From the NCBI GenBank assembly GCA_003971905.1, contig RSEE01000058.1:310001-374000 (forward strand): a DNA stretch of 64,000 bases. The letters are read 5' to 3'. Shown piece by piece: positions 6,944-40,703 of the stretch; the first letter of the stretch is position 1, and the number at the start of each line of letters is the position of its first letter. The stretch is from Moniliella sp. 'wahieum'. Its lineage: Eukaryota. The notes beneath the pieces were generated by a model. The model did no database searches. It was not told where the DNA came from and saw nothing but the letters and a program-made list of their open reading frames with translations. A program made the position numbers and the translations under genes.

Positions 6944-8281
6944 TGATCCAACCATTCATCGACCATTCAAGCTCAAGATTCATCATCGATCAATGATCGC
7001 ATCAAACAGAGGTTCTCTCGATCAGAAAATGATCCTCCCGATCATCGATCTCAGCGCAGCCACTCTGGTCCACACAACGCCCCACATGCTCTCCCCTCTT
7101 CCCCGCCGTGTTTGCACCAACACCCGCACGCCACGCAGAGTGGATATGGATGGTGCATGTCCCCCTCCCTCCCTCCATCTACCCATCTAGTAGTGCGCCG
7201 CACCACCTGGTTCCCATCCCGCATCCCCGTGGTGGAAGGATGCACGCCAGCCCCTCCCATGCCGCTGCCACCACATGGCATTCTGCAACATCACAAACAA
7301 CACAACTTGCATCCGCGAGAGAGTACAGCCTGTCGCAACACGAGCGCGATGTTGTCGGCAGCAAGCAATGGTGTAGTTGATGTACGCGATGTGCATTTGT
7401 GTGCAGCGCCAGGCCAGTAAGCTGGGGCGAAGCCCCAGCTGACCGGGCCGTATGCCCGGTGGTCTCCTCAGTCGTGTACTGACAACGCCTTTGAGCAGGA
7501 TGACGAAGTGACTGGAGATGGCGCTCAAGTGCTACAACAACGAACACGGAACATGCGCAAGCCTGCGCACAGATCGTCCATCTTACCCTGGCCCATTCTC
7601 TCTTTCGCGAACGCGATGACGCTTCACTCGCCCGTGCGACCTGTGGCCCTTGGATCTTGATTTTTGTCCTTCGATCATCCCTTTTCATCTCGGTGACCCC
7701 ATGATGTTTTCCCTTTATGATTAAGCGTCGATGAAGACGAAGTCTCTGGCTGCCGCCGGCCTGAGACTCCTATAACAACCTGCTGTTGCCTTGGCGCATC
7801 TCTCGACTCTCTTCGTGTCTACCCCTGGCAATGCATGCTTTGAAAAGTAATCCACTGCCTGATCTGACAGCATATGGCAGACTATCCACCACCCTAGCCG
7901 CCAGCCTGTCAGCAAGACTGCGGCCCGTCCGGGGATACCTGGTGAATAGCTGGCGGCAACCTGGGGGCGAGCTGTCGGGCAGGTTGTCTCGACCTTGCGA
8001 CGATCTTGCCGCTAGCGTCCCTTGTCGCGAGAGTGTGGCAACACTGGTGGTTGTCTGGCGATCACGACAGTTAATCTTGTGGCATGGTCCGCGGCAACCT
8101 CGTAACCAGAAATTTCGATTAGCTATGTGTGTTTGTTTTGTTCCCATCAAATCTAGAGCTATGAAAACGGTTCCAAGGGTTGCCTTTCCACGCCCGCTCC
8201 ATGTCACAGTCAATATGCACATCCAATCGACAATTGCGGCCTCCAGGCCGATGGCGAAGAAACAAAACCACAGGAGATGCA

Positions 8282-17605: not shown

Positions 17606-20467
17606 ATGGCCTCAAAGATCTCAAGTAACGGTACGTCTTCTCCTGAGTTTCGATGATTGTTCAGCTTCTCGCGAAACAAGATCGAACAAGATCCTAACCC
17701 TGGCTGGACTGTGCAGCAATCCAAGGTTCCCCCCGGCACCGAAGGAGCTGGCACCCACCACTTGGACCGAGGCGGCAGGCAACGCAGCCTCCTCTGTCGC
17801 TGGTACCGCATCAAATGTGGCCCAATCCGCTGCGCAGACTGTCGGCCTGACCAGCACCCAAGACCAAGCCACCGCGGCCGACACTGAGCCCGCTTCGAAG
17901 AGCAAGTCTGAGACGAAGGATGGGACCAGCCCCTCCTCTGGCTCAGAGGAGAAGAAAGACCGGCAGCAAAGGATCGGAACCGGGAGTGACTGTCGAACAG
18001 CGCGACGGATGCACCGTGATCAATGGTGTCAACCTCCAGAAGAACTTGGGACAAGGCAGTGGTCTTTCCGCTCCCTCGGGTCCAGCCCATAAGACCGATT
18101 CAGAGCCCAAGGAATCCACATCCCTTTCGGACAAGTCCCAGCACAGGCACCAACGTTTCGGGAAGTGGCACGGGTGCCACAGGCTCGACCGGCACAGAGG
18201 GAACTGCAGCCACGACGGCCACGACGGGGGCAGCCGGTGCCAAAGACCAGTTTGGCACGTCGGGTTTCTCCGAAAAGGATCTCAAGACGAGTACCAAGTC
18301 GGTTCCTCAGTACCCCAAGGGCGATCCCTCTCTCCAAACCTCGCCCGAAGAGAGCATTTCTGCCGCCCAAGGTCGAGCAAGGCCTCTGTCCCGCTCTCAT
18401 TCGACAACTGGGGTGAACGGTTCGGCCCTCGGTGCAGGTGCCGGATCGACTACCGGCGCAGCTACCGGTGCGGCGGCAGGCACAACCCATTCTTCTGGAA
18501 CCACCGCCGGTGCTACTTCGGGCGCTGGTGCGTACCCCAACGCCACGTCGGGCACCGGTGCCACCAGCAGTGGTGAACCCTCCGGGGCAGGCGCGGCGAG
18601 CATCACTGGTATTGCCACCGGTGCGGCAGCCCCCACGGCCGAGAAGGTGGCCCAGTCGGAACGTGAACGTGCCGCTGGCAACTCGGGTTCTCAGGGTGGC
18701 ATCCTTAGCGGCATCTCGAACAAGATTGCCAGTGTCACTGGCTACGGAACGTCCTCCACTGAGCCCACGTCGCAAGTTGGTTCGGGCGCGTACGACTCTA
18801 CCGCCGGGTCTACCGGTTCGACCGGAGACGCCGCTACAGGCGCGTTGGGTGGTGCGGCTGGTGGCGGGGCGTTGGGGTACGGTGCTGACAAGGCACTGCA
18901 CCATGGCGAGTCTACGGGTCTCGGCCAGAAGGCCGAAGGTTATGCCTCCGAGGGACAAGACAAGCTGTCCTCCTCGGCTCCCGGCCAGAAGGCTGAGGGA
19001 TACGTTTCTCAGGGCCAAGACAAGCTCCCTTCGAAGGATGCGCACCTGTCTGGGCTGAAGAACAACATTTCTTCGCAGCAGGGCGCGTACCCTTCCACCG
19101 GCTCGACGCTCCCGTCCACGTCGGAGGCGACGTCAACGGATCTCGAAGGTCGTGGGTTCACCGGCGCGTCAGCCCCGACCACCAGCACGGGGGCGACCGA
19201 GCAGCCCTCGGTGCTGGAGCAGGCCAAGGAAACAGCGTATGAACTCTACGAAAAGGCGACCGAGTTTGTTCAGGGGCATCCCTCTGAGGGCGCCGCCGTT
19301 GGGGTCGGCTCGGGTGTCGCAGCCGGTGCTGGTGCCGGGGCCGGGGTGGAGCACGGCGCGGACAAGGTTGCGTCACGGGAGATTCCTAGTTCGTCAGACA
19401 CCGCACGCACACCGCCACCTCGGTGGGAGAGGCAGACACGTCGGCTCAGCAACCTTCGTACCTTACCCAAGCCAAGGAGAAGGCGTATGACCTGTACGAA
19501 AAGGCCATTGGACAGAGCCCTTCGGATACCACCGACGCCGGCACCGCGGGTGCATCGGGCCCTCCGGCTCTGCTGCGACGGGAGCAGCAGCAGCGGGGCT
19601 TGCCGGTGGGAGCGTAGGCGCCGGCGCAGGCAACCTCTCCTCTGGCCAGACGGGCCACCACGCTGATCTTTCCTCGTCCAAGACAGGCGAGGCTGGGTCT
19701 TCTGCTACCCGTCTGCCACTAAGGGACTCGGGTCCGATCCCACAACGGCAGGGGCAAGTAGTGGTGACTGGTAGCAACCCGATCTCGGACGTGGCAGGTA
19801 GCCAGACGGCCGCGCCCCACGGGCCACCAGAGCTTTACCTGGCCGACAGTACCGCCAACAAGCCCACAGCGGGGACCGGGTCGGGCTTGGGTGCAGGTAC
19901 AGGTGTAGCTGCCGGTGCCGGTGCGGCGGGCTAGCTGGGTCCGGAGCTGCGGGAACTGCCTCGGGTGGAACCAGCAGCGGCAACGGGGTGGCATCCAACT
20001 TGGCCCACAGCAATCTCGCCTCGCAAGGGAAGAGCGAGGGTGAGAACGTCCTGTCCCAATCGAGCAACCCCAAGGATGCCCTGTCCACGGCGGAAAAGAC
20101 GGCTGGGGGGAAGAAGGAGGGGCTGACCAAGGATGCTACCAAGACTGCTTCCGATCTCAAGTCCGACCCGACCAAAGGCGTGCAAGAGGCCGGTAACTAC
20201 GCCCAGCAAGCTAAGAGCGAGTTGGGTGGAGCCGGCAGTGCCGGTGGTGCTACTGGGGCTGGCGGTGCTACTGGGGCTGGGGCTGGGGTTGCAGGTACGA
20301 CGGGAGCCGGCAACCACGGTGGCGAGTATCTCTCTGGACTTGGGCACGCGAAGGGCGGGGCTGAGCATGAGGCAAAGACGGCTGAGAGCGAGGGTGAATC
20401 AGGTGTCAAGAAGAGCCACAAGCTCAAGGACGAGCTCAAGCATATCAAGGACAAGATCCTCCACTAA
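17606..20467 (+). CDS. Large Gly/Ala/Ser/Thr-rich hydrophilic (LEA/hydrophilin-like) protein; one intron, frameshifted
   Basis: ATG 17606 and intron 17631-17716 (GTACGT..CCTAAC..GTGCAG). Long low-complexity ORFs 18023-19666 and 19988-20467 end in KKSHKLKDELKHIKDKILH*. Internal repeats: GQKAEGY.S.GQDKL x2 and QPS.L.QAKE.AY.LYEKA x2. Confidence 0.65.
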
Positions 20468-23400
20468 CTGGAGTGCCTCCATTGCTGTGAAGAACCATTT
20501 TCTCCTTGATGCACTCCGTGTCTGATTTCGAGTCTACATCCTGTCTACCATTTGTCTCCTGTCGTGTTAGTATACGCCAATATTGTTGATCTTTCTGCTC
20601 TATACTTGTCCTCTCGTTGGTCGTTCGAGGCATCCTAATAGTAGTCTACAGTGAGTATAACTAAGGGCTGAGTAAATGTATTAGCCCCAGCCTTCTAGAA
20701 CGCAACACAACCGTAAAGAAGCTACATAGTACATTCCCACTATGCATTCTAGGTTGGAGTGAGTGAGTCTGGCTCTCACAAAGTAAATCTCTTGCTCCCT
20801 ATAGACAACCCCATTTTACCTTGAGCACCAGATGCACTCCATCAACTGTGTTCCAATTTATATTTTTTTGCTCATTGTTTCTTCCGCGCCATGGCATTTC
20901 TCTCTCAACCAGCAATGGCAGAGCCAAAGAAGACTCAGCTATTACATTCCACCCCCAGCAGTAGAGTGCAGTTTCCATTCGCTTGGAGACAGGGATGGCG
21001 CGTACTACCAAGCACAACGTGTATTCCCTGATCCGAAAGGGGATGTCGGGGAGAGGGTGCCCTGTGCCCGGGGTTGTGGACGACGCAGTTTGTCTCCCTG
21101 TTTATAGTGCCTGTGTTAAATTTTGCTGTTTAGAAGTCTTCGTGAGGATCGCCCATCCATGGATCTCTATTGTACACCATCATGTGTTTGGTCCTCTCGG
21201 CCGGGGATTCTTCCAATGGGCATCATCTAAACCCTTAGTAGTGGCCGAACGGCATATATGGCTTCAAAAATGACAGCGACCAACCTTGGTCACGACCTTA
21301 TATACGCCTGGCGCTGACCAGGAAGAACCGACAGAACGAACAATGCGGACGAAGGGGCCATTAAAGGGTAATGTGGGTAAGGAAGGCCCCCCTGGATAGA
21401 GAAAGTCCCAAAGCGTGCGATGACTCTCGTGCATAGTAAGAGCACAGTGGAGAAACTGTATCCAGACACCTTGTCTGATAGCTCTTCCACTTCGTTGACA
21501 CATGTAGGGTAGTCTATCGATTAGGAGCAGGTTGAACGGTGAACGAACAAAAAGATTCAGAGCGAGAACTGAGTACTGGTCACTATTGACTGAGGGTCAC
21601 ATGGCTAACCGGCGCTAAGACAGATGTATAAGACGAGAGGACTAGTGCAACAGAGTGAAAGGGAGGATGGAGGTAGCACCACCCAAACCACAACAGTGTC
21701 GGCGAGGAAGCAAGCGACTGACAAATCACATCCCTTCTGCACTGTTCTATCCGCCTCTCCCTTTTGTTCTGCCTCTGACAGACTCCCTTTTGGAATGCTA
21801 CTACTCATCCCCTCTCCCTTCATACACTACCAGTTCAGATATACAAAAGCTCCCGCAAATGAGCACCAAACGTCGGTGGTCGGACACTGGGGGAAAACAG
21901 TTAGTATATCCTACCTTCAGAAGAGCAAACACCAGTGCATACACTGGCTGCTTACGCGGCCTACGGACCAAGATAAGGTCACAGGTGATGATCGGACCAT
22001 ATACCGACACGCGATCCTCTCCCCATGGCTTCATTTCCAGTTGCGTTTTGCCTCTGGATTCAGAGAGAAACGGTAGGTGGTGGAGGGAAAACGCATATAC
22101 TTTGCCTGGTTTGCCTCTCCGCGGGGTTCGGCACCTTAGCTTGCGCTCCTTTCTGGCATCTACATATTAACAGAATGTGAGAGAGAGAGCTAAGTGGTAA
22201 GTATGTAGGTGTGGAGCCCTTACAGGCCTATACGAGTACGCTCAGGCTCCGATTACATATAACAAAATGCCTGTGGGGAAGTGGATTGACCCTTATTCCC
22301 CGACGCGGCGAGTGACATGATGAAGGTGTCACATGGTTGCCAGTTGCGGCCCAAACCACAACACGTCGCCATGTCCCTGGCCGATTGCTGAGGAGATTGA
22401 ATGTTGATCTATGTTACTTGGTCTAAGATCTCTAAAGCTAAAGGGAGAGGTCCTCAGCCTGCGGCTATCGACTATTATCGTTTTGCTCAGGGGTCGGATC
22501 TTTGGGGCCTCGGCTTGGGGACTGAGGATTCAGGCGCTGAATAAGCACCCTGTTTCAATTGGGACCGGGGGCAACAGGTCCTGGAATCCACTTCTACACG
22601 TAGTATGACCCTGCTTGACCTACCGTGTCTGCGTCTACATGCTACTTCGCATAATACTTGCCATATGTCACACTACAGGTCACGTCATGCTAACCAGGCG
22701 TCCCTTTCTCGCCTTGTGAAAGCCATTTTGCCGAACGCGACGCACGATGAGCTGACCATTATGTAGGGAAGGTAGGGCCGACGAGAGAGGGGTGGGGGGG
22801 TGGCGGCGACAAAAGGTGTGCTACTATATCCACAGCACCGAACATGCTGTATGGGTGCCGGACTACCGAATCGCCACCGGCAGCAACTACAATAGTGGGA
22901 TAGTGCTAAATATCTCCACCAGAGAGAGGCACAGTTGTAGAGGGCTGAGGGCTGAGCGGTCTATGGATCCACCACGTGCAGTGCACTGGGTGGGTGGTGG
23001 GGGGGGGGGGGGGGGCACGAAATTGGGTGTGGCAAGACCATTGAGAAGACAAGTAAAAAGTACAGGTACAACGCTTCGGGCGTATGGATGTGCCGGGGGA
23101 CCAACAGGGAGATGGAATGGAGAGGTTTGGGCGGATGAGAGTGAGCTCCACGGCCCAGACGAGAATGGTGGGCGGGAACGTCGTGAGTGGCGTAGCGAGA
23201 TTCGAGATTGCAAACGAGGGCGGGCCAACGTGGATCCTGACGGCCTGATGATCGGGAGAGGTGGTGTAGCAGATCAAAAGAACAAAAGGGCGCGTAAGGG
23301 ATGGGGTATCCGTTCGGCCCTGGCCGGGCGATGAGACGAGGGGGATGAGGTCTTGAGCCAAATATTAATAAGCAGACTGCTGATGGGAAAGAAGGTGTTA

Positions 23401-23488
23401 GTAGAGGAAGAGAAGCAGTTGAACAACCATGAAAGAGGAGTTGACTGAAGCGTGGGAGGGCCAAGAGCGGGAAGACATACAAAGCGCA

Positions 23489-23593
23489 TCAATGCGTGTG
23501 ACGCATGTTCATCATTGCCTTGCAATAAGGACAGCGCTTGTGGCTCGTGTAGTCCACGAGCGCCTTGCAGGAGGGGCACTGGAACCATTTCAT
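23489..23593 (-). CDS. 34-aa zinc-ribbon (CxxC-x11-CxxC) microprotein MKWFQCPSCKALVDYTSHKRCPYCKAMMNMRHTH
   Basis: Translated manually; it is below the ORF-track cutoff. TATATAA at 23813-23819 (minus). 5'UTR intron 23611-23715 (GTGCGT..GCTGAC..CACAG). First ATG of the spliced message is at 23593 and TGA at 23489. 3'UTR intron 23380-23480 (GTATGT..TACTAAC..CAG). Confidence 0.7.
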   Translation of the reverse strand: MKWFQCPSCKALVDYTSHKRCPYCKAMMNMRHTH

Positions 23594-23812
23594 CCTCGGG
23601 GACTGAGGTGCTGTGGACGCAGGCGAGGGGCGCAAGGTCAGCTAGGTGCCGCCACCGGAGGAGGAGAGAGAAACAGGCCGGCGGAGAGGGGGATGAAGGA
23701 TCACAAAGGACGCACAGTAAGTGTTGGTGGCGGGAGGCGTGTAGTGCTTTTGGGTCGAGGCAGACGGGCAGAAGAGATGGAAGCTGTTTGGAGGCGTTGG
23801 CACGGGCAGGGG

Positions 23813-23819
23813 TTATATA
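23813..23819 (-). promoter_or_regulatory. TATA box of the zinc-ribbon microprotein gene
   Basis: TATATAA on the minus strand, about 100 bp upstream of the first intron donor. Confidence 0.6.
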
Positions 23820-25877
23820 GGCAGGGGCGGGAGAGAGGGGCGGAGGCGTAGCAGGCAGCGCCATTCCGTGATCGTCCAAGTTGGCGCCACTTGTGGCAGA
23901 GTATGGATTTTCGGACAGGGCGGCTGTGGCGGACGATCGATGAGTGGATATTGGGTTGGGTTGGAGAGGGGATGCGATTGAGACGCGGCTTCGCGCTGCT
24001 GAGCCGCTGTCAGGGCCTGCTGGGCGCTGGGCGCTGGACGCTCCAAGCTCCGAGGCTCAGGCGCTCACGTTGAGGCGCTCAGGCCTCAGGCGACGCTCCA
24101 GGCAAGCACGCGGAGGGCTGTTTTGGTGCGGGTGCACCCTGGCCCAGGGGTGTTTCAGCCGTGTGGTTCCTGACCCAATCAGGGATCCTGGGCCGAATCA
24201 TCCATCCAGCTGTGACGGTGGTACCGGTGATCCCTCAAGCTTCAAGCTTCACGCTCCAGCTTCACGCTCCAGCTTCAAGCCAGACACTGATGTCGATGAC
24301 TCGTTGCTGCAGATTCTTCGTTCCGAGCCCGTCGGTATACCTCGTGCGCCGCTGCCCAGTCGGCTGACACGCCGATTTGACATGCATCTCTTGCGCCGCT
24401 GGCCGAGGTACGGAGAGTGAGAGTGTATAGCGCTTTGAATGTGGCCCGGCAAGCGCGGAGCCCCGAGAGTGGCGGGCGGGGTGGGCGTTGTTGGCGCTGG
24501 CGCAGTGCGTGGTGTGCACTGGCCGCCCCGTCGCCCGACACAGGCCAAGCAGCAGACAGACACAGACCCCCCCCCGCGCGCAGCACTGCTCTGCCCCTGC
24601 CACCCTGCCCCCTCCAGCCCCCGGCTGAGGCTCAGCTTCAGCCGCGCCGCCTCACACTGCCTCCGCGCCTCGAGGGCACTGGCTCGCATATACATCACTC
24701 CGGCGGCACAAGTAGTGCGCTGGTCAACCCTTCATCTTGGCAGCGCCGATTCAACTCAAGGGTTGTAGAGATGTCTTCTGTACTCACCCTATTCCTGCTC
24801 CCCCAGCCACCCTCCCCCCGCTCCCGGACCTCACATGTCACTGGCCTGACCGCCACCCCTATGATAGAAAGAAGTATAGCACACAGCTGCGCTATGCTTA
24901 CTACCCCGTCACTAATCATTTATCCCAATTCATTGAACGTGACCCTCGGCAAAACCAAGACGAAACCATACGTGAACACACAGACCTGGTCAGGCTATCC
25001 AGTGTCTGTCCTGGCAATCACATAGGTAGTCTCTCTCTCCTCACGCGTCACGCGTCACCCACGTTCGTGACGGTCGCCTAAGAGCGTGTGTGTTGTCCCC
25101 CTCGCCCAAAAACAGCTATTGCTCCGAGCAATCCAACAATACCGTCCCCTGTTGCTCGGCCTGAAAGCGAGCACACAATCGGACCCCAACGACCTCACCC
25201 GCCTATTGCACATGCACACATCGTGTGGACAGAAAAATCAGTGGCGATGTCCCCGGACCCTACACGTCATCCGCCATTCCCCACCGCACAAAACTTCTTC
25301 TCCACACTCTCCACACAGCAGCCAGACAACAACAGCATGATGGTGTGCCTTGGCATGTGGGACGGCATACAGTTCGAAGATTTGGACTGCAGTGGGGAAT
25401 AGGAAGAGGATCGATCGGATCACGCGTCATGAGCATTATACGCATAGCCTGAGTGCTCGTCTTCTACAGCCCAGCAGCAAAACTGATAGGATTCCACCAC
25501 GCTCACGACCTGCTTGTTACACGTGCACTTTATCGTCCTGTGTGTACAAACAGCGATACTTCGACGGCTTGGCTTGGACGAAACGCCGGAACGCTTAATG
25601 GACCCCACGGAACGCCGGACGTCGATGTATCGGTGATGCCAGATGATCGTGGCGATGATGATGTATGATGCAATGATGCACGCATGCATGAGTGATGCAT
25701 GACGTGTGATGCGCCTCCCGATTACGGCTTGCTCCTCCAGGGGCCTTGTGGTCGTACCCACTTGAGCGCCTGGTCCAGGGGTGGTGGTCCGAAGCGGCTC
25801 AGCCTACGGCCTCCTACGGCGTGAATGTCAGTGCTTCGGACTGGGAGTACGCAGCAGTGCTTGGTACTTAGCAGTTC

Positions 25878-25990
25878 CTCAGTACTGAGACTCAGTACAC
25901 TCAGTACTGAACGTACTCAGAATCAGTACCAGTATCAGTACTCAGTATGCTCGCATGTCACATGTCACGCATATATGTCAAAATGTCACG
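25878..25990. repeat. AGTACT- then ACATGT-core heptamer cluster
   Basis: tcagtactgagactcagtacactcagtactga ... tcagtactcagtatg ... catgtcacatgtcac. Confidence 0.75.
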
Positions 25991-27984
25991 CACGCCACAG
26001 GACTCAGTCGGAGGCGTTGGTCCGAGTGCGGCCGCGTGCCCGGCGCCACACCCTCCAGTCTCGGGTTCACGCGTTCACGATCAAAATGAACATATGCACG
26101 ACCCTGCCAGCCTTGTGGCTTTCTTCGTGAATCATTAATTCATTAATCATTGCACCATGGTAGTCAGTTGGAGCCCCGCCGAGCCCCGCCGAGCCCCGCC
26201 GAGCCCCTAGGAGCATCATGCATCCCACATCAGATCCATCAGACCTCGGGTTCAACAAGGCACCCGGTTCACGCGTCACATGCCACATGTCACATGTCAC
26301 ACTAGCTGCAAGTTCACGTCCTCCGCACTGGTCCGCTTGGCAGCCAGCAAGACAGGGGGCACATGGCCCTTTTCTTCGTTCCACCTGTTCCCGACACGCT
26401 CCAGCAGGCTCCAGCAGGCTCCAACAGACGCACGCCTTTGCGATCCGCCAGTGTGCCAGGGCCCCCCGTCTGTCCCCTGCGCGCCTGCCTCCACCAAGAC
26501 CCACAATACCCACACACGCATCTTCACTGCAGTGGGTCCTGCTAGTCTGCTAGAATAGGACCTGTCACATGTCATGCGTCTCATGTGTCATGCATGCCAC
26601 ACAGGTCACTCACCAGCGCATCAGCAACGCTGAAGCTGAAGCTGAAGCTTGACGAACAGAGGGAGGGGACTGCTGATGCCATGAGCGTGAGGCTCAGCGC
26701 AACCAGAAGGGTGGGCCTGACGCGTGACGACCTGCCGAATCTTGAGGCGCTGAACTCGAGATCTCTGGGTGTTCTGCTAAGGATCTCAAAGGGTGTGCAC
26801 AGGTGTCCCCTTGCGCGGGGCCGTGGTAGAGCTGCTGTATGATATTTGAGTTCTGAGAGACTATGTACCGGCCAGCTCATCAACCATTTAGATCTTCAGC
26901 TTCAGTCCTGTCCTGCACGGCTGGCTGGTCCTGCACCCGTCCCTGACCGGGCCAATGAAAATCGTCCGCGCCACACTGCGCGTCACGCGCGTCATGCATC
27001 AGGCCGCAGGCCTCAGGCGTCGCCGTCACGCGTCACGAGGGCACTAGTCACCGCCACCGGGTCACCACCGGCCTTTTCTACGATCTAAGATCTAAAGCTC
27101 CTTGGGGCTTGAGCAAAAACCCGGTGGCTACCAACATGTAGAGTAGCCCGTGTAGTAGCTGTACAAGCACTAAGTACATCTCCGTACTTGCATGCTTAGC
27201 GCTTACATGTCGATTCTGACCCTGACATACTAAGCCCTCGGTTTGACACGTGCTCTTATTTCGATCTTATATCAGCTTCAAGTTTTACCCTTCAGCTCCA
27301 CCTGAGACTGCGGCGGGGCAGGTTAAGTGGCTAAAGGAGGCTCAGAAGATTTCACAGATGTTTTCGCCAGGAGTACGGCATGTTGCAATGTGGCGCTCTG
27401 TGGGGCTGGGGTTGTCGAGTTATCGATTGTCCATCTATACAACACGTATCCCCACCCACCATGCTCCTTAGGCCTTTCCTGAGACCCTCAAACTCAGAAG
27501 GTTCAGGGTCAGGTTGAACAACCGCCTAACCCGATCTAGTATACCGATCCGACGTGCCATGCACATAGTATGTTCGGCTCGCGCCTGAGGATGATGTATG
27601 CAGTATGGTTCGACCGCAAGACACACATGTAGGCCGCCGGCGCACCACTGGCGCACCCCTTCCTTCGGATTGATTACTGAGATGACTGATTTTTGATTCT
27701 TCCGACGCCCCTTGTGCGCGCGTTTGCGTATCTAGATTCAATATTCACCACCCTACGTTCCGTAGGTCTCCCGCCTACTGTCTGAGTCTGACCGTGAGCG
27801 CCTAAGGCCTGACAGGCGAGGCTTGGGCCAGGGCAGGACAAACGGGAGGAGTAGACGTTCGGCCGAAGGGACAGGGGGCTGAATAATGAAAAGTGACTAG
27901 TGAATATGAATAGTGAATGCCATCGAGGGCTTGTCCCGCGCACGGGGCAACACAACCGGAAGATTGGGTGGTGCTAACGTTCTG

Positions 27985-28060
27985 TCAAGCTTCAAGCTCT
28001 TCAAGCCTTTTCAAGCTTTGGCAAAAAGCTTTTCAAGCTTCAAGCTTCAAGCTTATTCAA
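27985..28060. repeat. (TCAAGCT)n heptamer cluster
   Basis: tcaagcttcaagctcttcaagccttttcaagctt ... ttcaagcttcaagcttcaagctt. Confidence 0.85.
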
Positions 28061-29250
28061 AACGTTTTGAGTTTCTACGTCCAAGGTCCAAGGTACACTA
28101 CTTTAACTTCCAACAGATGGGTGTGGGCGCAATTAGTGAGTAAGGAAGGAAATGAAACAGGAAGCATGAAGCTTGAAGATAGGAACGGGGGCATGAGTTG
28201 ATGGTCTACCATTCGAACCCTTGCCCCCAGCCTTGTCCACCCTCCTGCCCAACCGCCCGCGCAAAAGCGAAGAGATGCGCCCAGGCGACGGGGTGCGCCA
28301 CTCTGTCCCAGGTACCGTTATGATGCAAACCATGTCACAGTACTATCATCTCCACCGTTTGCTCCCTCTCTGGTCTCTTGCCGCCAATCTCGCCAAGGGG
28401 ATTCTTCCTTTCGTTCTTGATTCTTTCGTTCTTTATGTCCTTCTGATACCCTCCAAAGCTCCTCCCGGCCTGGCGACTCCTGTCGGGATCAGACTCGTTT
28501 GATCACGTTTTGTCACCAAGTTGTCTGGCCCCCTTGATTTGTTCTAGACCCTGTTTTCCCCCTTTGGATTGTGCTCCCTCTTTCCCTCCATGTGATTTAG
28601 CTCGCATGTTCTCTTCTTCTCCGAGGCATATATACCTCGCTCTCTTTCACTAGATAAATATGATCCTCATCCTTCTCCCCATCTCCATCTCCTGTTACCT
28701 CTCCTCTTTTCCCCGCACTATAATATTGCCCCCTTTCCGTCGCCTCGATCCGATTGGACGGACGTGGGGGCAGAGCGGGATGGATGAGATCTGCCGCTAC
28801 CGCTACCGCTACCGTCTGGGCCGTGCACTACGCTTCCACCTTCTACCTTCCACCTTCTACCTTCCACCTTGCTACTTCCATACAACATCCACCGTCCAAC
28901 TTGGCGCATGCAACGTTTCACGTGAGAGTAGTAACATTTCCCCGCCAAAAACGAGCGGGCAGGAGGAAGAACGCTACTGGGGGGCGTGCTCGTTCCCCTG
29001 GCCAAGGTCACGGCCATACGGGGCACATGGGAGAACCAGCAGGTGGGTCGCTAGGCCAGGGGAAGAGAAGAGGTCGTGGCGTAAATCACTAGAGGGCAAA
29101 AAAAAACAAATGCAGCAGCGGAGCAAGACGAGAAGAAGAAGAAATCAGAGTCGTCCACAGTCCCCGGGTAAACGGGAGGCAGGATCGGAAGAAGAAAAGA
29201 AAAGAAAAGAAAAGAGAAAAAAAAGGGTGAAAAGACGAGGAGACGATGAT

Positions 29251-30910
29251 CTATCGGGCGGTTGGCGCGAGAGGGCCATGAGCCAACTGAGCCAACGCGG
29301 CCAAGCTCCGACTGCAGGCGGCCGAGAGAGAGAGAGGGGGGGGGGGGGAAGCAGAGTCCTTTTGTTTGGTAAGGAAACGAGCGGGACACGTTTACTTGCT
29401 TAAAAGTGTATGAATCTCCGAGAGGATCCCGAGGCCTTGGCGGGCAGGAGCGCGGGCTGGGTCTTCGCCCACCCGGAGCGTATCAGGCAAAGCGGGTTGG
29501 CTTGGTTTGGGTCCGGCCCAGGGGAAAGGGAGGTACTCTTGTAAGTATTCAAACGACACGAGGGTTGCGCCGAATTGGGGTGAGGAGCGTAGGACACGAG
29601 CGAGGGAGCCCTTGAAGAACGCTTTGGGACCTTCTTGGACCAAAATTTTGCCAAAGCAGTCGGTGATGCCCTTGTACGTAGCTTGGCCCTTACGGGCTTC
29701 GACTTGCAACCGCGTTTTGATCACGTCGGCTGGCGTGGTGAAAAAGGCGGCGGGCATACCACTGATCGATGCGGCCGCCAACATTTCCCCAAACGATAGT
29801 TTCTTGCCATTCTTTCCCTCGTGAAACGTATCCTTTTTCAGATGCGCATAGGCAGGGAAGTAGATCGCACTAAATGGAATGTCCCGCAGCAGACACGCTC
29901 CAGCACCTTTGTACAGCCCACGAAGACCCAAGTCTTTCACAATCTGCCCGGCACCCAGCTTCTTGACCCCTTCCACCTTGGCCAGCTCTCCCTGAACTTG
30001 AAGACGGATCTTGACAATCTCTGAAGGTCATACAGGTTAGCTGACTTCCTGTTTCTCAAAGGGGGATGACACGGATGATACAGAGGAGAAAGCTGGCGCG
30101 TGGAATAGGAGAGAAATCAAATCAAAATCGGAATCGGAATGGGGATGTGTACAAAACAAAGAAGAAAAAATGTATAGAAGACGTACCTAACGGATTGGTA
30201 AAGATGACTTGGCACCCTCCCGCCGAACCACCAGCGACCAACTCCCACTTGAGCGCAATCTCTCCGGTGTGAGGGTCCGTGGTCTTGGACCGAATCAGAT
30301 CGTTGACCGTCAACTTGATAGCCTTTTCCGGTGCGACACCAATGAGTTGTGGGCCCAGTCCCGAGTAAAACCCGAGAAAGCCCTCGTTACGAAACACTTT
30401 ACCAACACAGTCCAACGAGTTTTTGTACATTGCCGCCTCGCCCACGGGAGCACGCTGGTTTTGCATCCGCGTCTTGACCAGGTCAATGGGATAGACCAGC
30501 GTCGCACCGACCGATCCTGCCACGCCACCAAGAGCAAAGTGATACACGGCATGGGCTAGGTCGTACAGCAGACCATGCCGTGTTGGTGGGGCGTCACCAG
30601 GGGTAGATGTAGAGGCAGCAGTAGACGCAGTGGGGTCCTGCTCTTGGTTTTGGTTTGGTCGGGCCCCGCCGCGGGAGGTGAAGGATGCGAGGGGGCAAAG
30701 TCATCTTGGATGGCGAGCTGGTGATGGAGGCGTGTCGGGTGAGAGGGGTCCTTGTTCACCGCATAGCTCACTCCGCCTCCGAGCTGCTGGAAGCGGTGCA
30801 GACGCTCCGTAAGTGGCGTGATTGTCCCCCTCGGTGCGGAAGGTGGCAGTGAGGAGGAACGGGGGCTGCTCCTCACACAGCAGCGGCTTGGTCTGGGGGA
30901 AAAAGATCAT
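29251..30910 (-). CDS. AGC1: Mitochondrial aspartate/glutamate carrier (SLC25A12/13, Agc1 family)
   Basis: Three carrier repeats: [27 protein letters not shown] and [12 protein letters not shown]. Agc1-diagnostic [25 protein letters not shown] and RSSPQFG are present. Intron 30021-30186 (GTACGT..GCTAAC..CAG). A last intron at 29312-29395 is possible; otherwise the stop is at 29392. Likely ATG 30910. Confidence 0.92.
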
Positions 30911-35748: not shown

Positions 35749-37946
35749 ATGAAGACCACGGTGCTCGCCAGCGCCCTCCTCGCCGCTGTGGCCACGGCGC
35801 CCTGCGCCCACGCCGCCGCCTTCCCGCCCTCTCCCTCGGAGCGCTCCCACCTCGAGGCAGCCACCGTCGAGCAAGTTGCCCGCGCCATTGTTGGCCTCTG
35901 AGGTCATGCTCGGCAAGCGCTCCGACCCCACCGGCACCTACGCACCCACCTACATCACCTGCCCCAGATCACACACCACGGTGCCAACTACATTGGGGCT
36001 ATGTGCGCAACGCACTGGCTTGCCCTCAACCCGGCCGAGGCCACCTACATCCGAACCACCCGCTCTGCCCGTCACGCCGACTGGACCACCTGGCTCAAGC
36101 AGGCCCAGGTCGTCTCGACTCGGTCGTGCCCGTGGGTTTGACAACTACACGTCGGACCTGAGTCGTGTGCCGCGCATCGGCATTGCCTCTTCTGGCGGCG
36201 GGTACCGTCGATGCTCAATGGCGCTGGTGTGTTTAATGGCTTTGACGGCCGCAACGAGACGGCCAATGCGATTGGTACTGGAGGTCTGCTGCAGTTGGCT
36301 GACTACCTAGCCGGCTTGAGTGGCGGTAGCTGGCTCCCGGCTCGGTCGCCATCAACAATTACCCTACTCCAACAACTTCACGATGAGGTGTGGGACTTGG
36401 AGAGCAACCTCATCCTCCTCGGACAATAAGGTCAGCTTCTATTCCGGCCTGATCAGCGATGTGCACGATAGAAGAACTTTGTCGGGAATGGCAAATGGAC
36501 TGGCATCACGGACTATTGGGCTCGTGCCTTGGCCCACCACTTGATCAACAATACCATGTACCCCAACTACGGTGTGGCTACCACCTGGAGCGACGTGCGC
36601 AACGTATCCTTCCAAACCTTTGCCTACCCCGTACCCAATCATGTGTTGCCGACGAACGGGGTACGTGCTTCTTCTTTTTTTTTCTCTTTTTTCCTTCTCC
36701 CTCGTTGGAGAACTGCGAGCAGCAGATTGTGTGTGCAGAGAAAGGACATAACTGACTGACGGTGCTGTGGCGTATACAGAACCGGGCGAACAGATCATCC
36801 AGGCCGAATCGCTATCTGGGAATTCACACCGTACGAATACGGTACCTGGGAACCAAGATCAATGCGTTTGTGGACATTGACTTGGCCGGGACCGAGTTGG
36901 AATGGTCAGCCGACCAACTCGTCGCAGTGTGTGACGGGGTGGACGAATGCGGCATGGACGATGGGCACGTCGAGCACGTTGTTCAATGGTGCCTTGATTG
37001 AGTTGACCGAGAGCAAGGGCGGGGGACTGATCAAGAAGGCGATTGAAGAGGTGCTGAAAGACATTGGCGATGACGGTAATGACATTTCCATCATTCCCAA
37101 TGCGTTTGGTGGGTTGAACCCGACCGTGTCGGAAATTGCTTCGAGCAACAACGTGACCCACGTCGACGGTGTGAGGATGGCCAAAACGTGCCGATCTGGC
37201 CGTTGCTCAACCCGGGACGCAAGTTGGACTTTATCATTGCCGAGGACGCGTCGGCCGACGTGAGTTCCTGGCCGAACGGAACCAGTCTCTGGACCACGGG
37301 GCAACGGTTCAACTCGTCCAACGACTTTAGCGACTATGCGTTCCCCTACATTCCTCCCATGGAGACCTTTGTCAACCGTGGGCTTAACACGCGTCCCACG
37401 TTCTTTGGCTGTCCCGGATCGCGGATCACGAACCAAAACACGTCGTTCAACGGACAAACCGTCGCCGATTGTTGCGTACTTGCCTACCTACCCCTACACG
37501 GGCTTTGGCAACACGTCGACGTACAAGATGGACTATGACACGAACGAAAGCCAACGGTGCTGGACAATGCGTTCAACGTGGCTACCATGGGCAATGCTAC
37601 GTCCGGAGCGATCAATTGGCCTACGTGTTTGGCATGTGGCATGCTCACCCGTTCGTTTGAACGGTCCCACACGCCCATCCCGGACAAGTGCACTCAATGT
37701 CTCGACTTGTTCTGCTGGGACGGGGTGGAAGATAACTCGGAACCTTCTGCGGCGTACTCGCCCCCGATTGGCGTGCCGGAATTCATCACCTCGGGCGGAA
37801 AGACGTTGAAGGAACCGCCGATCACGGGTGGCAATGGTCCAATGGTGCTGCCCCCTCGGGCAACCCCGGTTCTATCACTCTCCCCTGGGCTTCCAAGCCT
37901 TCGGTCGCCCTGGCTCTCGCCGCGGTTGTCCTGGCCCGTGCTTTAG
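35749..37946 (+). CDS. PLB1: Lysophospholipase / phospholipase B, secreted, probably GPI-anchored; frameshifted
   Basis: Signal peptide MKTTVLASALLAAVATAPCAHA, YAPTYITCP, PRIGIASSGGGYR(A)MLNGAG, catalytic YLAGLSGGSW, HVDG..NVPIWPLL, FVNRGLNTRPTFFGC, WPTCLACG..C..CLDLFCWDG and a hydrophobic C-terminus. Intron 36661-36779. Confidence 0.93.
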
Positions 37947-38039
37947 GTGCGGTGAACGTCAAAGTCAAAGTCAAAGTGAACGTGAAAGTGAACGTGAAAG
38001 ACGTTACCTTGCTCACAACCACACATTTCTTCCCTCCGC

Positions 38040-38420
38040 TCCTTGCTCCTTACTCCTTACTCCTTACTCCTTGCTCCTTGCTCCTTTCGACCTGCTGGCT
38101 TGCTTGCGGGCCGGTTGCTGGCTGGCTTGTTGCTTCTGCGTACCTACCTATCTTTCCCCTCGTTTGATCCTACCTCGCTTTAGTTCTTGTTTTGGGTCTT
38201 GGTCTTGATCTTGACCGTGGTCTTGGTCTTGGTCTTGACCTTTACCTTGGTCTTCATCTTCATCTTGGTCCTTGTTCTTGCTCTTGTGCCAGTGCTTGGT
38301 ATAGGCCATGCCATATGTCACGTCATGGATCTTGGCCTGTGGTTGTGCTTGTGCTTGTTGGCTGTGCTTGTTGGTTGTTGGTTGCGGTGGTGCTTGTGGT
38401 TGTGGTTTTGTGGTTGTGGT
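38040..38420 (+). repeat. Low-complexity 3'UTR microsatellites: (CCTT[A/G]CT)n, (TCTTGG)n, (TTGTGG)n
   Basis: ccttgctccttactccttactccttactccttgctccttgct; tcttggtcttgatcttga... Confidence 0.8.
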
Positions 38421-39033
38421 TTGAGTTTTCAGCCCCCTAGTCCTTTTCCCCTTTTCCCCGTTCAGTAGAACTGAACCCCTCCTACACTTCGCCCTAGCTT
38501 GCTGATTGCATGGATCCTTCTCCTTCTCTTGGCCTCTCTCCCGCTCGCTTGCCGTGCTGCTTCCCCTCTCAAATATTACCTCTCGCCTCGCCTCTCAGAT
38601 CTTACCTTTCACCTCCACCTCTCCCTTTCACCTCTAATCTGAACGTCCAACCTTGGGAATTTAGCTAGCTAGGACGATCCACATTGAGCCGATGCTTGCT
38701 GGGTTGTGATACGTTCGTGTCGTTCATTCTACTCGTCTCTTAAATTCTGCTTTGGTTTGATTTACTTTGCTTGGTACACCCACGGAACCCCCCTCCCCCC
38801 ACACCCATCTACTTCGGCCCCCATCTCTTCCCTCTTCCACCTTGAAGCTTAACTTGAGCCAGCCCGTACAAGCAGGCAGTCCGCGTCGGTTCGTCCCGCC
38901 CACCCGAGCGTAGAGAGCTTCTGTATAAGCTCGGCAGACGGACGTCCAACCCACCGCGCTGAGGGGTTCAAATCGCACCCCCCACCCACCCCTCGATCGG
39001 ACCTTGGTTCTCGGTCCTCGGGTCTCGGGTCTA

Positions 39034-39138
39034 GGTTCCCGCTTCGCGATTCTCGGTTCCCGCTTCGCGATTCTCGGTTCCCGCTTCGCGATTCTCGGTT
39101 CCCGCTTCGGGGGTCTAGGTTCCCGCTTCGCGATTCTC
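39034..39138. repeat. 21-bp minisatellite, 5 units of GGTTCCCGCTTCGCGATTCTC
   Basis: Four perfect units and one variant (GGTTCCCGCTTCGGGGGTCTA), with degenerate flanks. Confidence 0.9.
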
Positions 39139-40010
39139 GGTTCGCGGGTCTAATAGGTTCTCGGTTCTCCCCCCTACCCCCCCCCCCCCTCTTCTTCCGG
39201 CACACGTCACGCCTCTGTCGTTCATTTTCAGGTGTCCCCCCCTCGCTCTTTGATCCATCACAGCACTCGCTGCACCGCGATGGCAACCCCGTAACCCGGA
39301 CAAGACAACAGTCACATCTGTCTGTCCTGCATGCCTCGCTTCTCCTCTTTTCGCTTCTCTTCTCTTTGTCTTGCCTCTTGCCTCTTGCTCCTTGCCCCTA
39401 ACCTTTGCTCCTTGCCCTTCGCTCCTTGCCCCTCGCTCCTTGCCCCTTACCTTTCCTCCCCCCCCGTGAAGACTTTACTTCACGTACGTTCCTTTCACTT
39501 GGTTGGAGAAAACTATACGGACACATTGCCCCAGTACTGGTACTGGTACCGGTACACCATTTCCCACCTCCGTCCGCACGCCCCACTTATTGCCACTTGC
39601 CTTCTTGCCTCTTTCCTTCTTGCCTCTTTCCTTCTTGCCTCTTGCCTCTTGCCTCTTTCTTCTTGCCTCTTGCCTCCTGCCTGTAGCCTGTTGTTGCGTG
39701 CCGCCCGGTGCGGAAGTCCGCAAGGCAGGCCCCAGGCTCCGCGCCTCAGGACAGTAGAAAGAATGGATACAGGTTCGGTCCTGCCCCACACGCCGATTGC
39801 AGGGAACCCGTAGGGAACTCAAACGAAATCGACCGAGCCCGACAGACTCTTAGCTGTCTTTCCCTAAGGCATTGGCCACACCTCTGGGGGAGGGGGAGGG
39901 GTAGGAACCATCAACTCGCGGGTCTGGCACGCGAACCGTGCGTGCTTAATCGGAGGCTCTTGACTTACTGCCCGTTGTGGATTGTCGATAGTCAATTGTC
40001 GATTTCCGAC

Positions 40011-40066
40011 AGTCGATAGTCGATAGTCGATAGTCGATAGTCGATAGTCGATAGTCGATGGTCGAT
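40011..40066. repeat. (AGTCGAT)7 heptamer microsatellite
   Basis: Seven perfect units at 40011-40059 plus one degenerate unit. Confidence 0.95.
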
Positions 40067-40703
40067 TGTGGGTTGCTGGTTGTCGTATGTGGAGTGTCGA
40101 CGGACCAAGACCAATTGCAGTGCCGTGCTCGTCGCTCGTCCAACGACGTACCCGTACCGCGTACCGCGGAACGCCTCAGCAAGCACGTTTTGGTTTGTCT
40201 CGAGCGTTGGGTTCCGACGTGAAAAAAACGCCCACTCCGGGGCTCCGGGGCTGGTACGCCGCACGCACGCCTTCTCCTACCTCCTATCTGAGATGGGAGA
40301 GGGGAGGTGGGAAATCTGACAGGGGACGGACTCGTCACTGACATGTGGTGAGCTGGGACTTAGCGCTAAGCGCCAAGCCCGCTCCTCCTACTCTCCAGTG
40401 TGGCGAAAGTTTAGGTCTCCATAGGACTATAGACGATGACTAGTGACTAGTGACTATTGAATGCGCCCAGCGGATGCCCTGCCCGAGCCGAGCGCGACTA
40501 TCGTGCAGCCGCGGGTAAAGAACCGGCAATGTGTCTCTTTGGACTTGTTCTTACTCTAGCACCGCCCCGGCTGGGCTAGGTGGGGTAGGGGGGCAGAAGG
40601 ACGTTGTGGCATAGAGCAGATGCAAAAGAGGAGGGGGGGTTGGTTGTACTTAGTATGCGCAGTGTGGGTTGGATGGCTTGCCGAGGCAGGCAGTAGGTCC
40701 AAC

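What the first reader, a model, noticed from the sequence alone, without database searches (positions are those of the whole stretch)
23380..23819. Unannotated 34-aa zinc-ribbon microprotein gene with introns in both UTRs
Seen on the minus strand: TATATAA, an ATG-free first exon, a canonical 105-nt 5'UTR intron, then the first ATG opening an intact frame MKWFQCPSCKALVDYTSHKRCPYCKAMMNMRHTH*. A 101-nt intron with a perfect TACTAAC starts 8 nt after the stop. CxxC-x11-CxxC is a zinc-ribbon arrangement (established fold class). The ORF is too short for the ORF track and for most gene finders. Inference: a stand-alone single-domain zinc-finger microprotein, a class studied in archaea but poorly described in fungi.
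Basis: partly seen in the sequence, partly recalled or inferred. Interest (0 to 1): 0.7.

Follow-up and report, generated by a model that had tools for sequence, protein, structure and literature searches.

The report
Candidate 34-residue zinc-binding microprotein gene
A tiny, unannotated-looking gene for a 34-residue four-cysteine zinc-binding protein, with an intron on each side of its coding part, probably sits in a gene-poor stretch of a basidiomycete fungus, but no RNA or cross-species evidence could be obtained to prove it.

Summary
Controls within the window show the combination is unlikely to be chance. The candidate is the only 1 of 429 short ATG-ORFs flanked on both sides by intron-like segments. 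Those two segments are among only 7 pyrimidine-rich intron-like donors in the window, and at least one of the other five is an intron of a recognised gene. A random 130-nt exon of this composition encodes such a Cys4 ORF about 1-2 times in 100,000. Synonymous codon use and GC3 fit the window's coding sequence. The ORF's ATG is the first one after a TATATAA, whether or not intron 1 is spliced. External support is missing. No RNA run could be listed. No homologue turned up among 1.84 billion protein representatives or in metagenomes. No fungal genomes were available for comparison. My verdict is that it is probably (about 0.58) a real, lineage-restricted microprotein gene. The fold class is open, either zinc ribbon or treble-clef-like. 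The function is inferred only. Interest is moderate.

The parts
23813..23819 (-). TATATAA, candidate TATA box. It lies 226 nt before the ATG in the genome and 121 nt before it after splicing of intron 1.
   Evidence: TATAWAW occurs 24 times in the window against 3.1 expected from shuffles.
23716..23812 (-). Candidate exon 1 (5' leader). It is ATG-free and pyrimidine-rich. The transcription start is unknown.
   Evidence: no ATG; Y fraction 0.60-0.70.
23611..23715 (-). Candidate intron 1 in the 5' UTR, 105 nt: GTGCGT ... CTGAC ... CAG. Y fraction is 0.71. An alternative acceptor lies at 23603.
23481..23610 (-). Candidate exon 2, 130 nt. It holds the whole coding sequence, with 17 nt before the ATG and 8 nt after the stop.
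   Evidence: In one search the Y fraction is about 0.5, against 0.70-0.83 across most of both flanking introns (lower in the bins that straddle a boundary).
23489..23593 (-). Coding sequence of 34 codons plus TGA. The product is a 4.1-kDa basic (pI 9.4) Cys4 protein with CPSC at residues 6-9 and CPYC at residues 21-24.
23380..23480 (-). Candidate intron 2 in the 3' UTR, 101 nt: GTATGT ... TACTAAC ... CAG. Y fraction is 0.74. The acceptor is a CAGCAG tandem (23380/23377).
23360..23371 (-). AT-rich patch TTATTAATATTT at the start of candidate exon 3, a possible polyadenylation element. The 3' end of the transcript is unknown.
   Evidence: In one search GC falls to 0.37 in this bin. The role is inferred.

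Best explanation
I read this as a small, free-standing, RNA polymerase II gene on the minus strand. A TATA-box promoter drives a short transcript of three exons, and the 130-nt middle exon carries the whole coding sequence. The first AUG, with A at -3, opens a 34-codon frame. The product is a 4.1-kDa, strongly basic peptide. Its four cysteines, two CPxC knuckles 11 residues apart, most likely hold one Zn2+ and fold the chain into a beta-hairpin plus a short C-terminal helix. The stop lies only 8 nt before the last exon junction, so by the usual 50-55-nt rule (established knowledge, not tested here) the 3' UTR intron should not trigger nonsense-mediated decay. By analogy with single-domain zinc-finger microproteins of archaea, the peptide most likely works as a zinc-stabilised adaptor that binds a nucleic acid or an acidic protein partner, not as an enzyme. 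Shown here: the sequence anatomy and its improbability under chance. Inferred: transcription, splicing, translation, zinc binding and function. The gene appears restricted to a narrow lineage, because no relative was detected.
For: (1) Anatomy is confirmed. (2) The candidate is the only 1 of 429 ATG-ORFs of 20-80 aa in the window with intron-like segments within 40 nt on both sides. (3) Of 144 intron-like donor/acceptor pairs in the window, only 11 pairs (7 donors) are pyrimidine-rich (Y >= 0.65). Two of the 7 donors flank this ORF. One of the other five is the intron joining the two Mito_carr ORFs (30186-30021, GTACGT..CTAAC..CAG). A second lies next to the ETF ORF. Three (45049, 47958, 55790 on +) sit among long open frames that had no Pfam hit. 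(4) The exon is a purine-balanced island (Y about 0.5), while both putative introns are pyrimidine-rich (Y 0.71 and 0.74 over their whole lengths; 30-nt bins 0.53-0.83). (5) Synonymous-codon log-odds is 0.103, rank 18 of 291 short ORFs. The window's coding chunks average 0.119 (sd 0.114) and the short-ORF background averages -0.093 (sd 0.141). GC1/2/3 are 0.37/0.46/0.77, and the GC3 contrast ranks 2 of 291. (6) A complete ATG-to-stop Cys4 ORF arose in 2 of 300,000 shuffles of the exon and 4 of 200,000 Markov exons, and never with both CPxC. (7) Pfam: 7 zinc-finger families at E <= 0.01, with Zn_ribbon_ACC at 1.5e-5 and 25.6 bits against a cutoff of 24.5. Of 149 other short ORFs, including all 26 others with >= 4 Cys, only 3 had any hit at E <= 0.01, and none had more than one. 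(8) The ORF's ATG is the first ATG after the TATATAA even in unspliced RNA, and the next ATG outside the exon and intron 2 is 448 nt downstream of the stop, at 23041. TATA-like heptamers are 8-fold enriched in the window. (9) AlphaFold single-sequence pLDDT is 74.3 (five models 61.6-74.3), against 66.7 (44.8-66.7) for one Cys-rich control ORF. With n = 1 control this is weak.
Against: There is no direct evidence of any kind. No homologue was found. phmmer against 1.84 billion representatives gave 4 hits at E <= 1e-3, all multi-repeat zinc-ribbon or repeat proteins of 122-844 aa and none an orthologue. The word-indexed search found no candidate. Two metagenome scans found only motif-level matches. 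The full codon log-odds is unremarkable, rank 48 of 291. One clearly spurious Cys-rich ORF (22025-22177 +) reached Pfam E = 1.8e-4, so 1.5e-5 is not far from noise. The loose intron pattern is as common in reversed sequence, and reversed sequence also produced one doubly flanked ORF in 365. About 1 kb around the ORF is pyrimidine-rich on this strand, so the pyrimidine richness of the two introns is not independent evidence. The candidate was picked post hoc from 64 kb in a scan of many windows. The locus lies in about 9 kb with no recognisable gene.
Confidence: 0.58

Rival explanations
1. This is a chance open frame in untranscribed, or only incidentally transcribed, intergenic DNA. The splice-like signals, the TATA heptamer and the Cys pattern coincide by accident in a pyrimidine-rich stretch.
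For: CxxC-x8-20-CxxC occurs 6 times in the six frames of the window. Intron-like patterns are no more common than in reversed sequence. Reversed sequence gave one doubly flanked ORF in 365. A spurious ORF reached Pfam E = 1.8e-4. No homologue exists anywhere searched. No recognisable gene lies within 9 kb.
Against: The joint expectation is far below one per window: 2 of 291 ORFs with two CxxC times about 1 in 400 to 1 in 2,000 for double flanking. The two flanking segments are among only 7 pyrimidine-rich intron-like donors in 128 kb of strand sequence. Synonymous codon use and GC3 match coding sequence. It carries the first ATG after an enriched TATA motif.
Confidence: 0.2
2. This is a real spliced transcript that works as a non-coding RNA. 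Intron-containing transcripts without coding potential are reported in Cryptococcus. The short frame would be incidental, or translated without yielding a functional protein.
For: The intron and promoter evidence speaks for a transcription unit, not for coding as such. [quoted passage not shown] No protein homologue was found.
Against: A random 130-nt exon of this composition carries a complete Cys4 ORF about 1-2 times in 100,000. The frame shows coding-like synonymous codon use and GC3. It starts at the first AUG in good context. No Rfam family matched 21000-26000 at E <= 1.
Confidence: 0.12
3. The 130-nt exon is the last coding exon of a larger, mis-seen gene whose upstream exons splice into the acceptor at 23611. 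The zinc module would then be a C-terminal domain and not a free-standing protein.
For: The frame is open upstream of the ATG through the whole of exon 2 and, in the spliced model, back to the TAA inside the TATA heptamer. C-terminal zinc modules are common, as in the prokaryotic proteins of about 112 aa found.
Against: No ORF of >= 75 aa between 19.5 and 29.4 kb has a credible Pfam hit. The 260-aa open frame over the locus has no homologue. Apart from the candidate's own, no pyrimidine-rich intron-like segment lies within 5 kb upstream. The TATA heptamer and the ATG-free leader fit a start here.
Confidence: 0.08

Closest known systems
Single-domain C(P)XCG zinc-finger micro-proteins of Haloferax volcanii (for example HVO_0758, HVO_2753). 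Sources: PMC6562870, abstract read; PMC11241148 and PMC10716476, starts of abstracts only, in the listings.
   Same: Both are free-standing proteins far below 70 aa that consist of little more than two Cys pairs, each with Pro after the first Cys. Both are expected to hold one zinc ion. Both act, where known, as regulators or adaptors and not as enzymes.
   Different: This one is eukaryotic, with a TATA promoter and two introns. Both knuckles read CPxCK, not CPxCG. At 34 aa it is smaller than the named archaeal examples. No sequence homology was detected. PMC11241148's title and abstract start say that several such proteins do not bind zinc, so zinc binding cannot be assumed.
Pfam zinc-ribbon models (Zn_ribbon_ACC PF17848, Zn_ribbon_3 PF13248, DZR PF12773)
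   Same: The candidate has two CxxC knuckles with the typical hydrophobic residue two positions before the first Cys, and a spacing of 11. P0004 carries three repeats of the same pattern.
   Different: Only PF17848 passes its cutoff, by 1.1 bits and through short partial stretches. The AlphaFold model places Cys21/Cys24 at the N-terminus of a helix. By the classification I recall (Krishna, Majumdar and Grishin 2003, not read here) that is a treble-clef arrangement, not a ribbon.
Prokaryotic proteins of about 112 aa ending in ...YWFNCPTCGHKVPSTSMFTCPRCATSLR (metagenome loci, for example L104)
   Same: Both carry the identical skeleton WFxCPxC-x11-CPxC.
   Different: The match is at most 12 of 34 positions, 8 of which the search pattern forced. 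There the module is the C-terminal part of a longer protein. I take this as convergence on the motif, not as orthology.

Membership tests
Zinc ribbon (Pfam zinc beta-ribbon models) | Four metal ligands arranged as two CxxC knuckles separated by roughly 10-20 residues | tested here: met
   Cys6, 9, 21 and 24 form CPSC-x11-CPYC.
Zinc ribbon (Pfam zinc beta-ribbon models) | Profile score above the curated gathering cutoff | tested here: inconclusive
   PF17848 scores 25.6 bits against 24.5 and passes, but its best stretch covers only profile positions 1-11 of 26. PF13248 scores 23.4 against 27 and PF12773 scores 20.1 against 27.3; both fail.
Zinc ribbon (Pfam zinc beta-ribbon models) | Both knuckles sit on beta-hairpins | tested here: inconclusive
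   The single-sequence AlphaFold model (pLDDT 74.3) has strands 4-6 and 11-13 and a helix at 22-30, so the second knuckle is at a helix start. Foldseek against the PDB gave no match. VIA-align gave one chain at Z 2.0. The model is too small and too uncertain to decide.
Zinc ribbon (Pfam zinc beta-ribbon models) | Binds one Zn2+ | not testable with these tools
   This needs a metal assay on the peptide.
Archaeal C(P)XCG zinc-finger micro-proteins | Protein below 70 aa | tested here: met
   It has 34 aa.
Archaeal C(P)XCG zinc-finger micro-proteins | [quoted passage not shown] | tested here: not met
   Both motifs read CPxCK, with Lys where Gly is required. The family definition comes from the abstract starts.
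Archaeal C(P)XCG zinc-finger micro-proteins | Detectable sequence homology to a member | tested here: not met
   phmmer over 1.84 billion representatives returned 4 hits, none a small archaeal protein.
Upstream ORF / leader peptide of a downstream gene | A main ORF follows on the same transcript | tested here: not met
   After intron 2 the next ATG on this strand is at 23041 and opens 26 codons. No minus-strand ORF of >= 75 aa down to 19.5 kb has a Pfam hit.
snoRNA host gene (intron-encoded snoRNA) | A snoRNA family match inside an intron | tested here: inconclusive
   No Rfam match at E <= 1 in 21000-26000. By eye I saw no box C (UGAUGA) in either intron. Lineage-specific snoRNAs could be missed.
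Basidiomycete lipopeptide pheromone precursor | C-terminal CaaX box (definition recalled, not from a call) | tested here: not met
   The C-terminus is ...MRHTH, with no Cys in the last 10 residues.

The most novel reading that the evidence does not exclude
This is a lineage-restricted, possibly de novo-born, 4-kDa Cys4 zinc mini-protein gene with its own TATA promoter and an intron in each UTR. It would be a fungal counterpart of the archaeal zinc-finger micro-proteins and among the smallest free-standing zinc-finger genes of any eukaryote. Its Met/His-rich tail (MMNMRHTH) next to two CxxC pairs leaves open a role in sensing or buffering zinc or copper.
Probability: 0.45. Interest if true: 0.55.

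Novelty: new member of a known kind. Interest (0 to 1): 0.4.

Why it matters
Genes this short are skipped by fungal gene finders. The review PMC11413187 (passages read) says it is hard to tell real short ORFs from incidental ones in fungi; the word 'zinc' does not occur in its text. A free-standing 34-residue zinc module with clean gene architecture would be a convenient test case: one exon, two diagnostic junctions, and a peptide that can be made synthetically. It could show that single-domain zinc-finger microproteins, so far studied mainly in archaea, also exist as independent genes in fungi. It could also show how such genes arise. If it proves not to be expressed, it is a useful calibration of how convincing a chance gene-like arrangement can look.

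Tried and rejected
- RNA evidence: the look-up of sequencing runs on 23100-23950 listed no run, so no RNA holder was listed. Read laying could therefore not be used.
- Whole genome: none is held for this window.
Longer window references that include in-frame non-coding codons found nothing. phmmer on the exact 34 aa gave only 4 repeat-protein hits.
They are dominated by one prokaryotic family, with a best match of 12 of 34 identities and no orthologue. This scan was not exhaustive.
- Long alternative frame over the locus (260 aa, 23277-24056): no homologue and no self-hit.
- PDB by sequence: nothing below E = 0.24.
- PDB by structure: Foldseek gave no match. VIA-align wide gave one chain at Z 2.0.
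- ESM Atlas: the nearest clusters are hypothetical or rubredoxin-like proteins of 32-46 aa at 0.87-0.90 with few shared features. These are leads only.
- Rfam: no match.
- Repeats: no transposon, LTR or repeat at the locus.
- Automatic harvest of true introns, to train a splice model: far too noisy in this GC-rich sequence, so I abandoned it.
- Bacterial promoter/terminator scan: irrelevant for a eukaryote. It only showed a 7-bp hairpin over the stop codon.
- Earlier findings of the scan: none by place, sequence or words.
- Readings rejected: pheromone precursor (no CaaX); metallothionein (4 Cys in 34 residues, by recalled criteria); snoRNA host (no Rfam match).
- Literature: searches for 'zinc ribbon' plus 'microprotein' gave 4 papers, none on fungi judging by their titles and abstract starts. 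Searches for 'zinc finger' / 'microprotein' / 'fungi' / 'small open reading frame' listed no fungal zinc-finger microprotein among the 15 of 137 shown. I cannot say that none is in print.
Full report
**What is in the sequence.** All features lie on the minus strand.
- TATATAA lies at 23819-23813.
- An ATG-free, pyrimidine-rich leader follows.
- A 105-nt segment at 23715-23611 has GTGCGT at its 5' end, CTGAC 26 nt before its 3' end, and CAG at the end.
- Seventeen nt later comes an ATG at 23593 with A at -3.
- A 34-codon frame ends in TGA at 23491-23489.
- Eight nt further on, a 101-nt segment at 23480-23380 runs GTATGT ... TACTAAC ... CAG.

The peptide is MKWFQCPSCKALVDYTSHKRCPYCKAMMNMRHTH. 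It weighs 4.1 kDa, has pI 9.4, and has Cys at 6, 9, 21 and 24.

I add four points.
- The ORF's ATG is the first ATG after the TATA heptamer even without splicing of intron 1. After intron 2 the next ATG on this strand is at 23041.
- The second acceptor is a CAGCAG tandem, and intron 1 has an alternative acceptor 8 nt downstream.
- An AT-rich patch (23371-23360) directly follows intron 2 and could serve polyadenylation. This is an inference.
- A second ATG at 23588 opens an overlapping frame that looks like noise.

**Is it more than chance?** Single features are not.
- Stop-free CxxC-x8-20-CxxC occurs 6 times in the six frames of the window.
- My loose intron pattern is as frequent in reversed sequence.
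- About 1 kb around the ORF is pyrimidine-rich on this strand, which by itself keeps frames open. The frame stays open for 175 codons after the TGA, and a 260-codon frame overlaps the locus.

The combination, however, is rare.
- Of 291 ATG-ORFs of 25-60 aa, 2 have two CxxC.
- Of 429 ATG-ORFs of 20-80 aa, only this one has intron-like segments within 40 nt on both sides. The reversed control gave 1 of 365.
- Of 144 intron-like pairs in the window, only 11 (7 donors) are pyrimidine-rich. Two of these 7 donors flank the ORF.
- Of the other five donors, one is the intron that joins the two mitochondrial-carrier ORFs. One lies next to the ETF ORF. Three lie among long open frames that gave no Pfam hit.
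- The exon stands out as a purine-balanced island between the two pyrimidine-rich introns, whose Y fractions are 0.71 and 0.74.
- Random exons of the same composition produced a complete Cys4 ORF in 2 of 300,000 shuffles and 4 of 200,000 Markov sequences, and never with both CPxC.
- TATA-like heptamers are enriched eightfold in the window, and one sits at a fitting distance.

**Coding signals.**
- The full codon log-odds is unremarkable, rank 48 of 291, because the amino-acid composition is odd.
- The synonymous-only log-odds is 0.103, rank 18 of 291. It sits on the mean of real coding chunks (0.119) and 1.4 sd above the short-ORF background.
- GC at codon positions 1/2/3 is 0.37/0.46/0.77, the second-largest GC3 contrast of the 291.
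- Pfam gives seven zinc-finger families at E <= 0.01. The best is Zn_ribbon_ACC at 1.5e-5, just over its cutoff.
- In a control of 149 other short ORFs, which included every other ORF with four or more Cys, three had a single hit each. One of these is a probable true phospholipase exon. Another is a spurious RING hit at 1.8e-4. The profile evidence is therefore positive but not far above noise.

**What could not be obtained.**
- No genome is held for the window.
- No RNA run could be listed.
- No collection open to me holds fungal genomes.
- phmmer over 1.84 billion representatives found four repeat proteins and no orthologue.
- The word-indexed search and two metagenome scans found only motif-level matches. 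These are dominated by a prokaryotic family of about 112 aa with the same WFxCPxC-x11-CPxC skeleton.
- The long overlapping frame has no homologue either.
- The neighbouring carrier's best relatives are at 81% and 75% identity (both unnamed) and 70% (Tilletia controversa). The organism is therefore a basidiomycete without close relatives in that database.

Failure to find an orthologue of a 34-aa protein is consequently uninformative.

**Surroundings.** From about 20.5 to 29.4 kb, no ORF of 75 aa or more has a credible Pfam hit. There is no repeat or transposon signature at the locus and no Rfam match. The candidate thus stands alone in a gene-poor stretch. This argues against its being an exon of a bigger gene or a leader of one.

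**Structure and mechanism.** Single-sequence AlphaFold gives pLDDT 74.3, with a beta-hairpin (strands 4-6 and 11-13) carrying the first knuckle and a helix (22-30) starting at the second. One Cys-rich control ORF gave 66.7, with much poorer agreement among its five models. By recalled classification, a hairpin knuckle plus a helix-start knuckle is treble-clef-like and not a classical ribbon. PDB searches by sequence and by structure were blank or trivial. I therefore call it a Cys4 zinc mini-domain of undecided class.

I infer that it binds one zinc ion and uses its basic surface (+4.7 at pH 7) to bind a nucleic acid or an acidic protein. This is by analogy with the archaeal single-domain zinc-finger micro-proteins, whose deletion gives stress, biofilm and swarming phenotypes (PMC6562870, abstract). 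The Met/His-rich tail leaves a metal-sensing role open.

UTR introns are documented in another basidiomycete, and so are introns in transcripts without coding potential (PMC5851062, passages). This keeps the non-coding-RNA rival alive.

| Reading | Probability |
|---|---|
| Real protein-coding microgene | 0.58 |
| Pure chance | 0.20 |
| Spliced non-coding transcript | 0.12 |
| Terminal exon of a larger gene | 0.08 |

If real, it is a new, lineage-restricted member of a known kind, the free-standing Cys4 zinc-finger microprotein, in a kingdom where that kind has hardly been described.

Noticed in passing
window 20500-29400: About 9 kb has no Pfam-recognisable ORF of 75 aa or more on either strand, in a window that is otherwise fairly gene-dense. 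GC dips to 0.515 at 20-22 kb.
   Followed up: partly
window 29395-30700 (-): A mitochondrial carrier gene of the aspartate/glutamate-transporter type has a 166-nt intron at 30186-30021. Its best database relatives are at 81%, 75% and 70% identity; the 70% relative is named Tilletia controversa.
   Followed up: partly
L001-L120 (metagenome loci), e.g. L104: A widespread prokaryotic protein family of about 112 aa ends in a conserved zinc module...YWFNCPTCGHKVPSTSMFTCPRCATSLR. It filled most of the pattern scan.
   Followed up: no
window 7421-7469 and 62750-62798: A 49-nt inverted repeat, 90% complementary, with arms 55 kb apart. It may be two copies of a small dispersed element.
   Followed up: no
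window 22995-23011 (+): A run of about 16 G (C on the minus strand) lies about 370 nt downstream of the candidate's second intron. A similar G run is at 2950-2962.
   Followed up: no
window 22025-22177 (+): A 51-aa Cys-rich short ORF has a zf-RING_6 hit at E = 1.8e-4, well below the cutoff. I judged it spurious, and it is useful as a noise yardstick.
   Followed up: partly
window 37359-37535 (+): A short ORF matches the lysophospholipase catalytic domain (PLA2_B, E = 3.3e-5, at the cutoff). It is probably an exon of a phospholipase B gene.
   Followed up: no
window 38000-40100: A dense cluster of CT-rich 14-, 15- and 21-nt tandem repeats, plus a GTCGATA heptamer array.
   Followed up: no
window 18020-19666 (+): A 548-codon open frame encodes a low-complexity protein rich in Gly, Ala, Ser and Thr, with an internal 60-nt repeat. 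It has no Pfam hit.
   Followed up: no
window 23485-23505 (-): A 7-bp hairpin encloses the candidate's stop codon, a few bases before the 5' splice site of intron 2.
   Followed up: no
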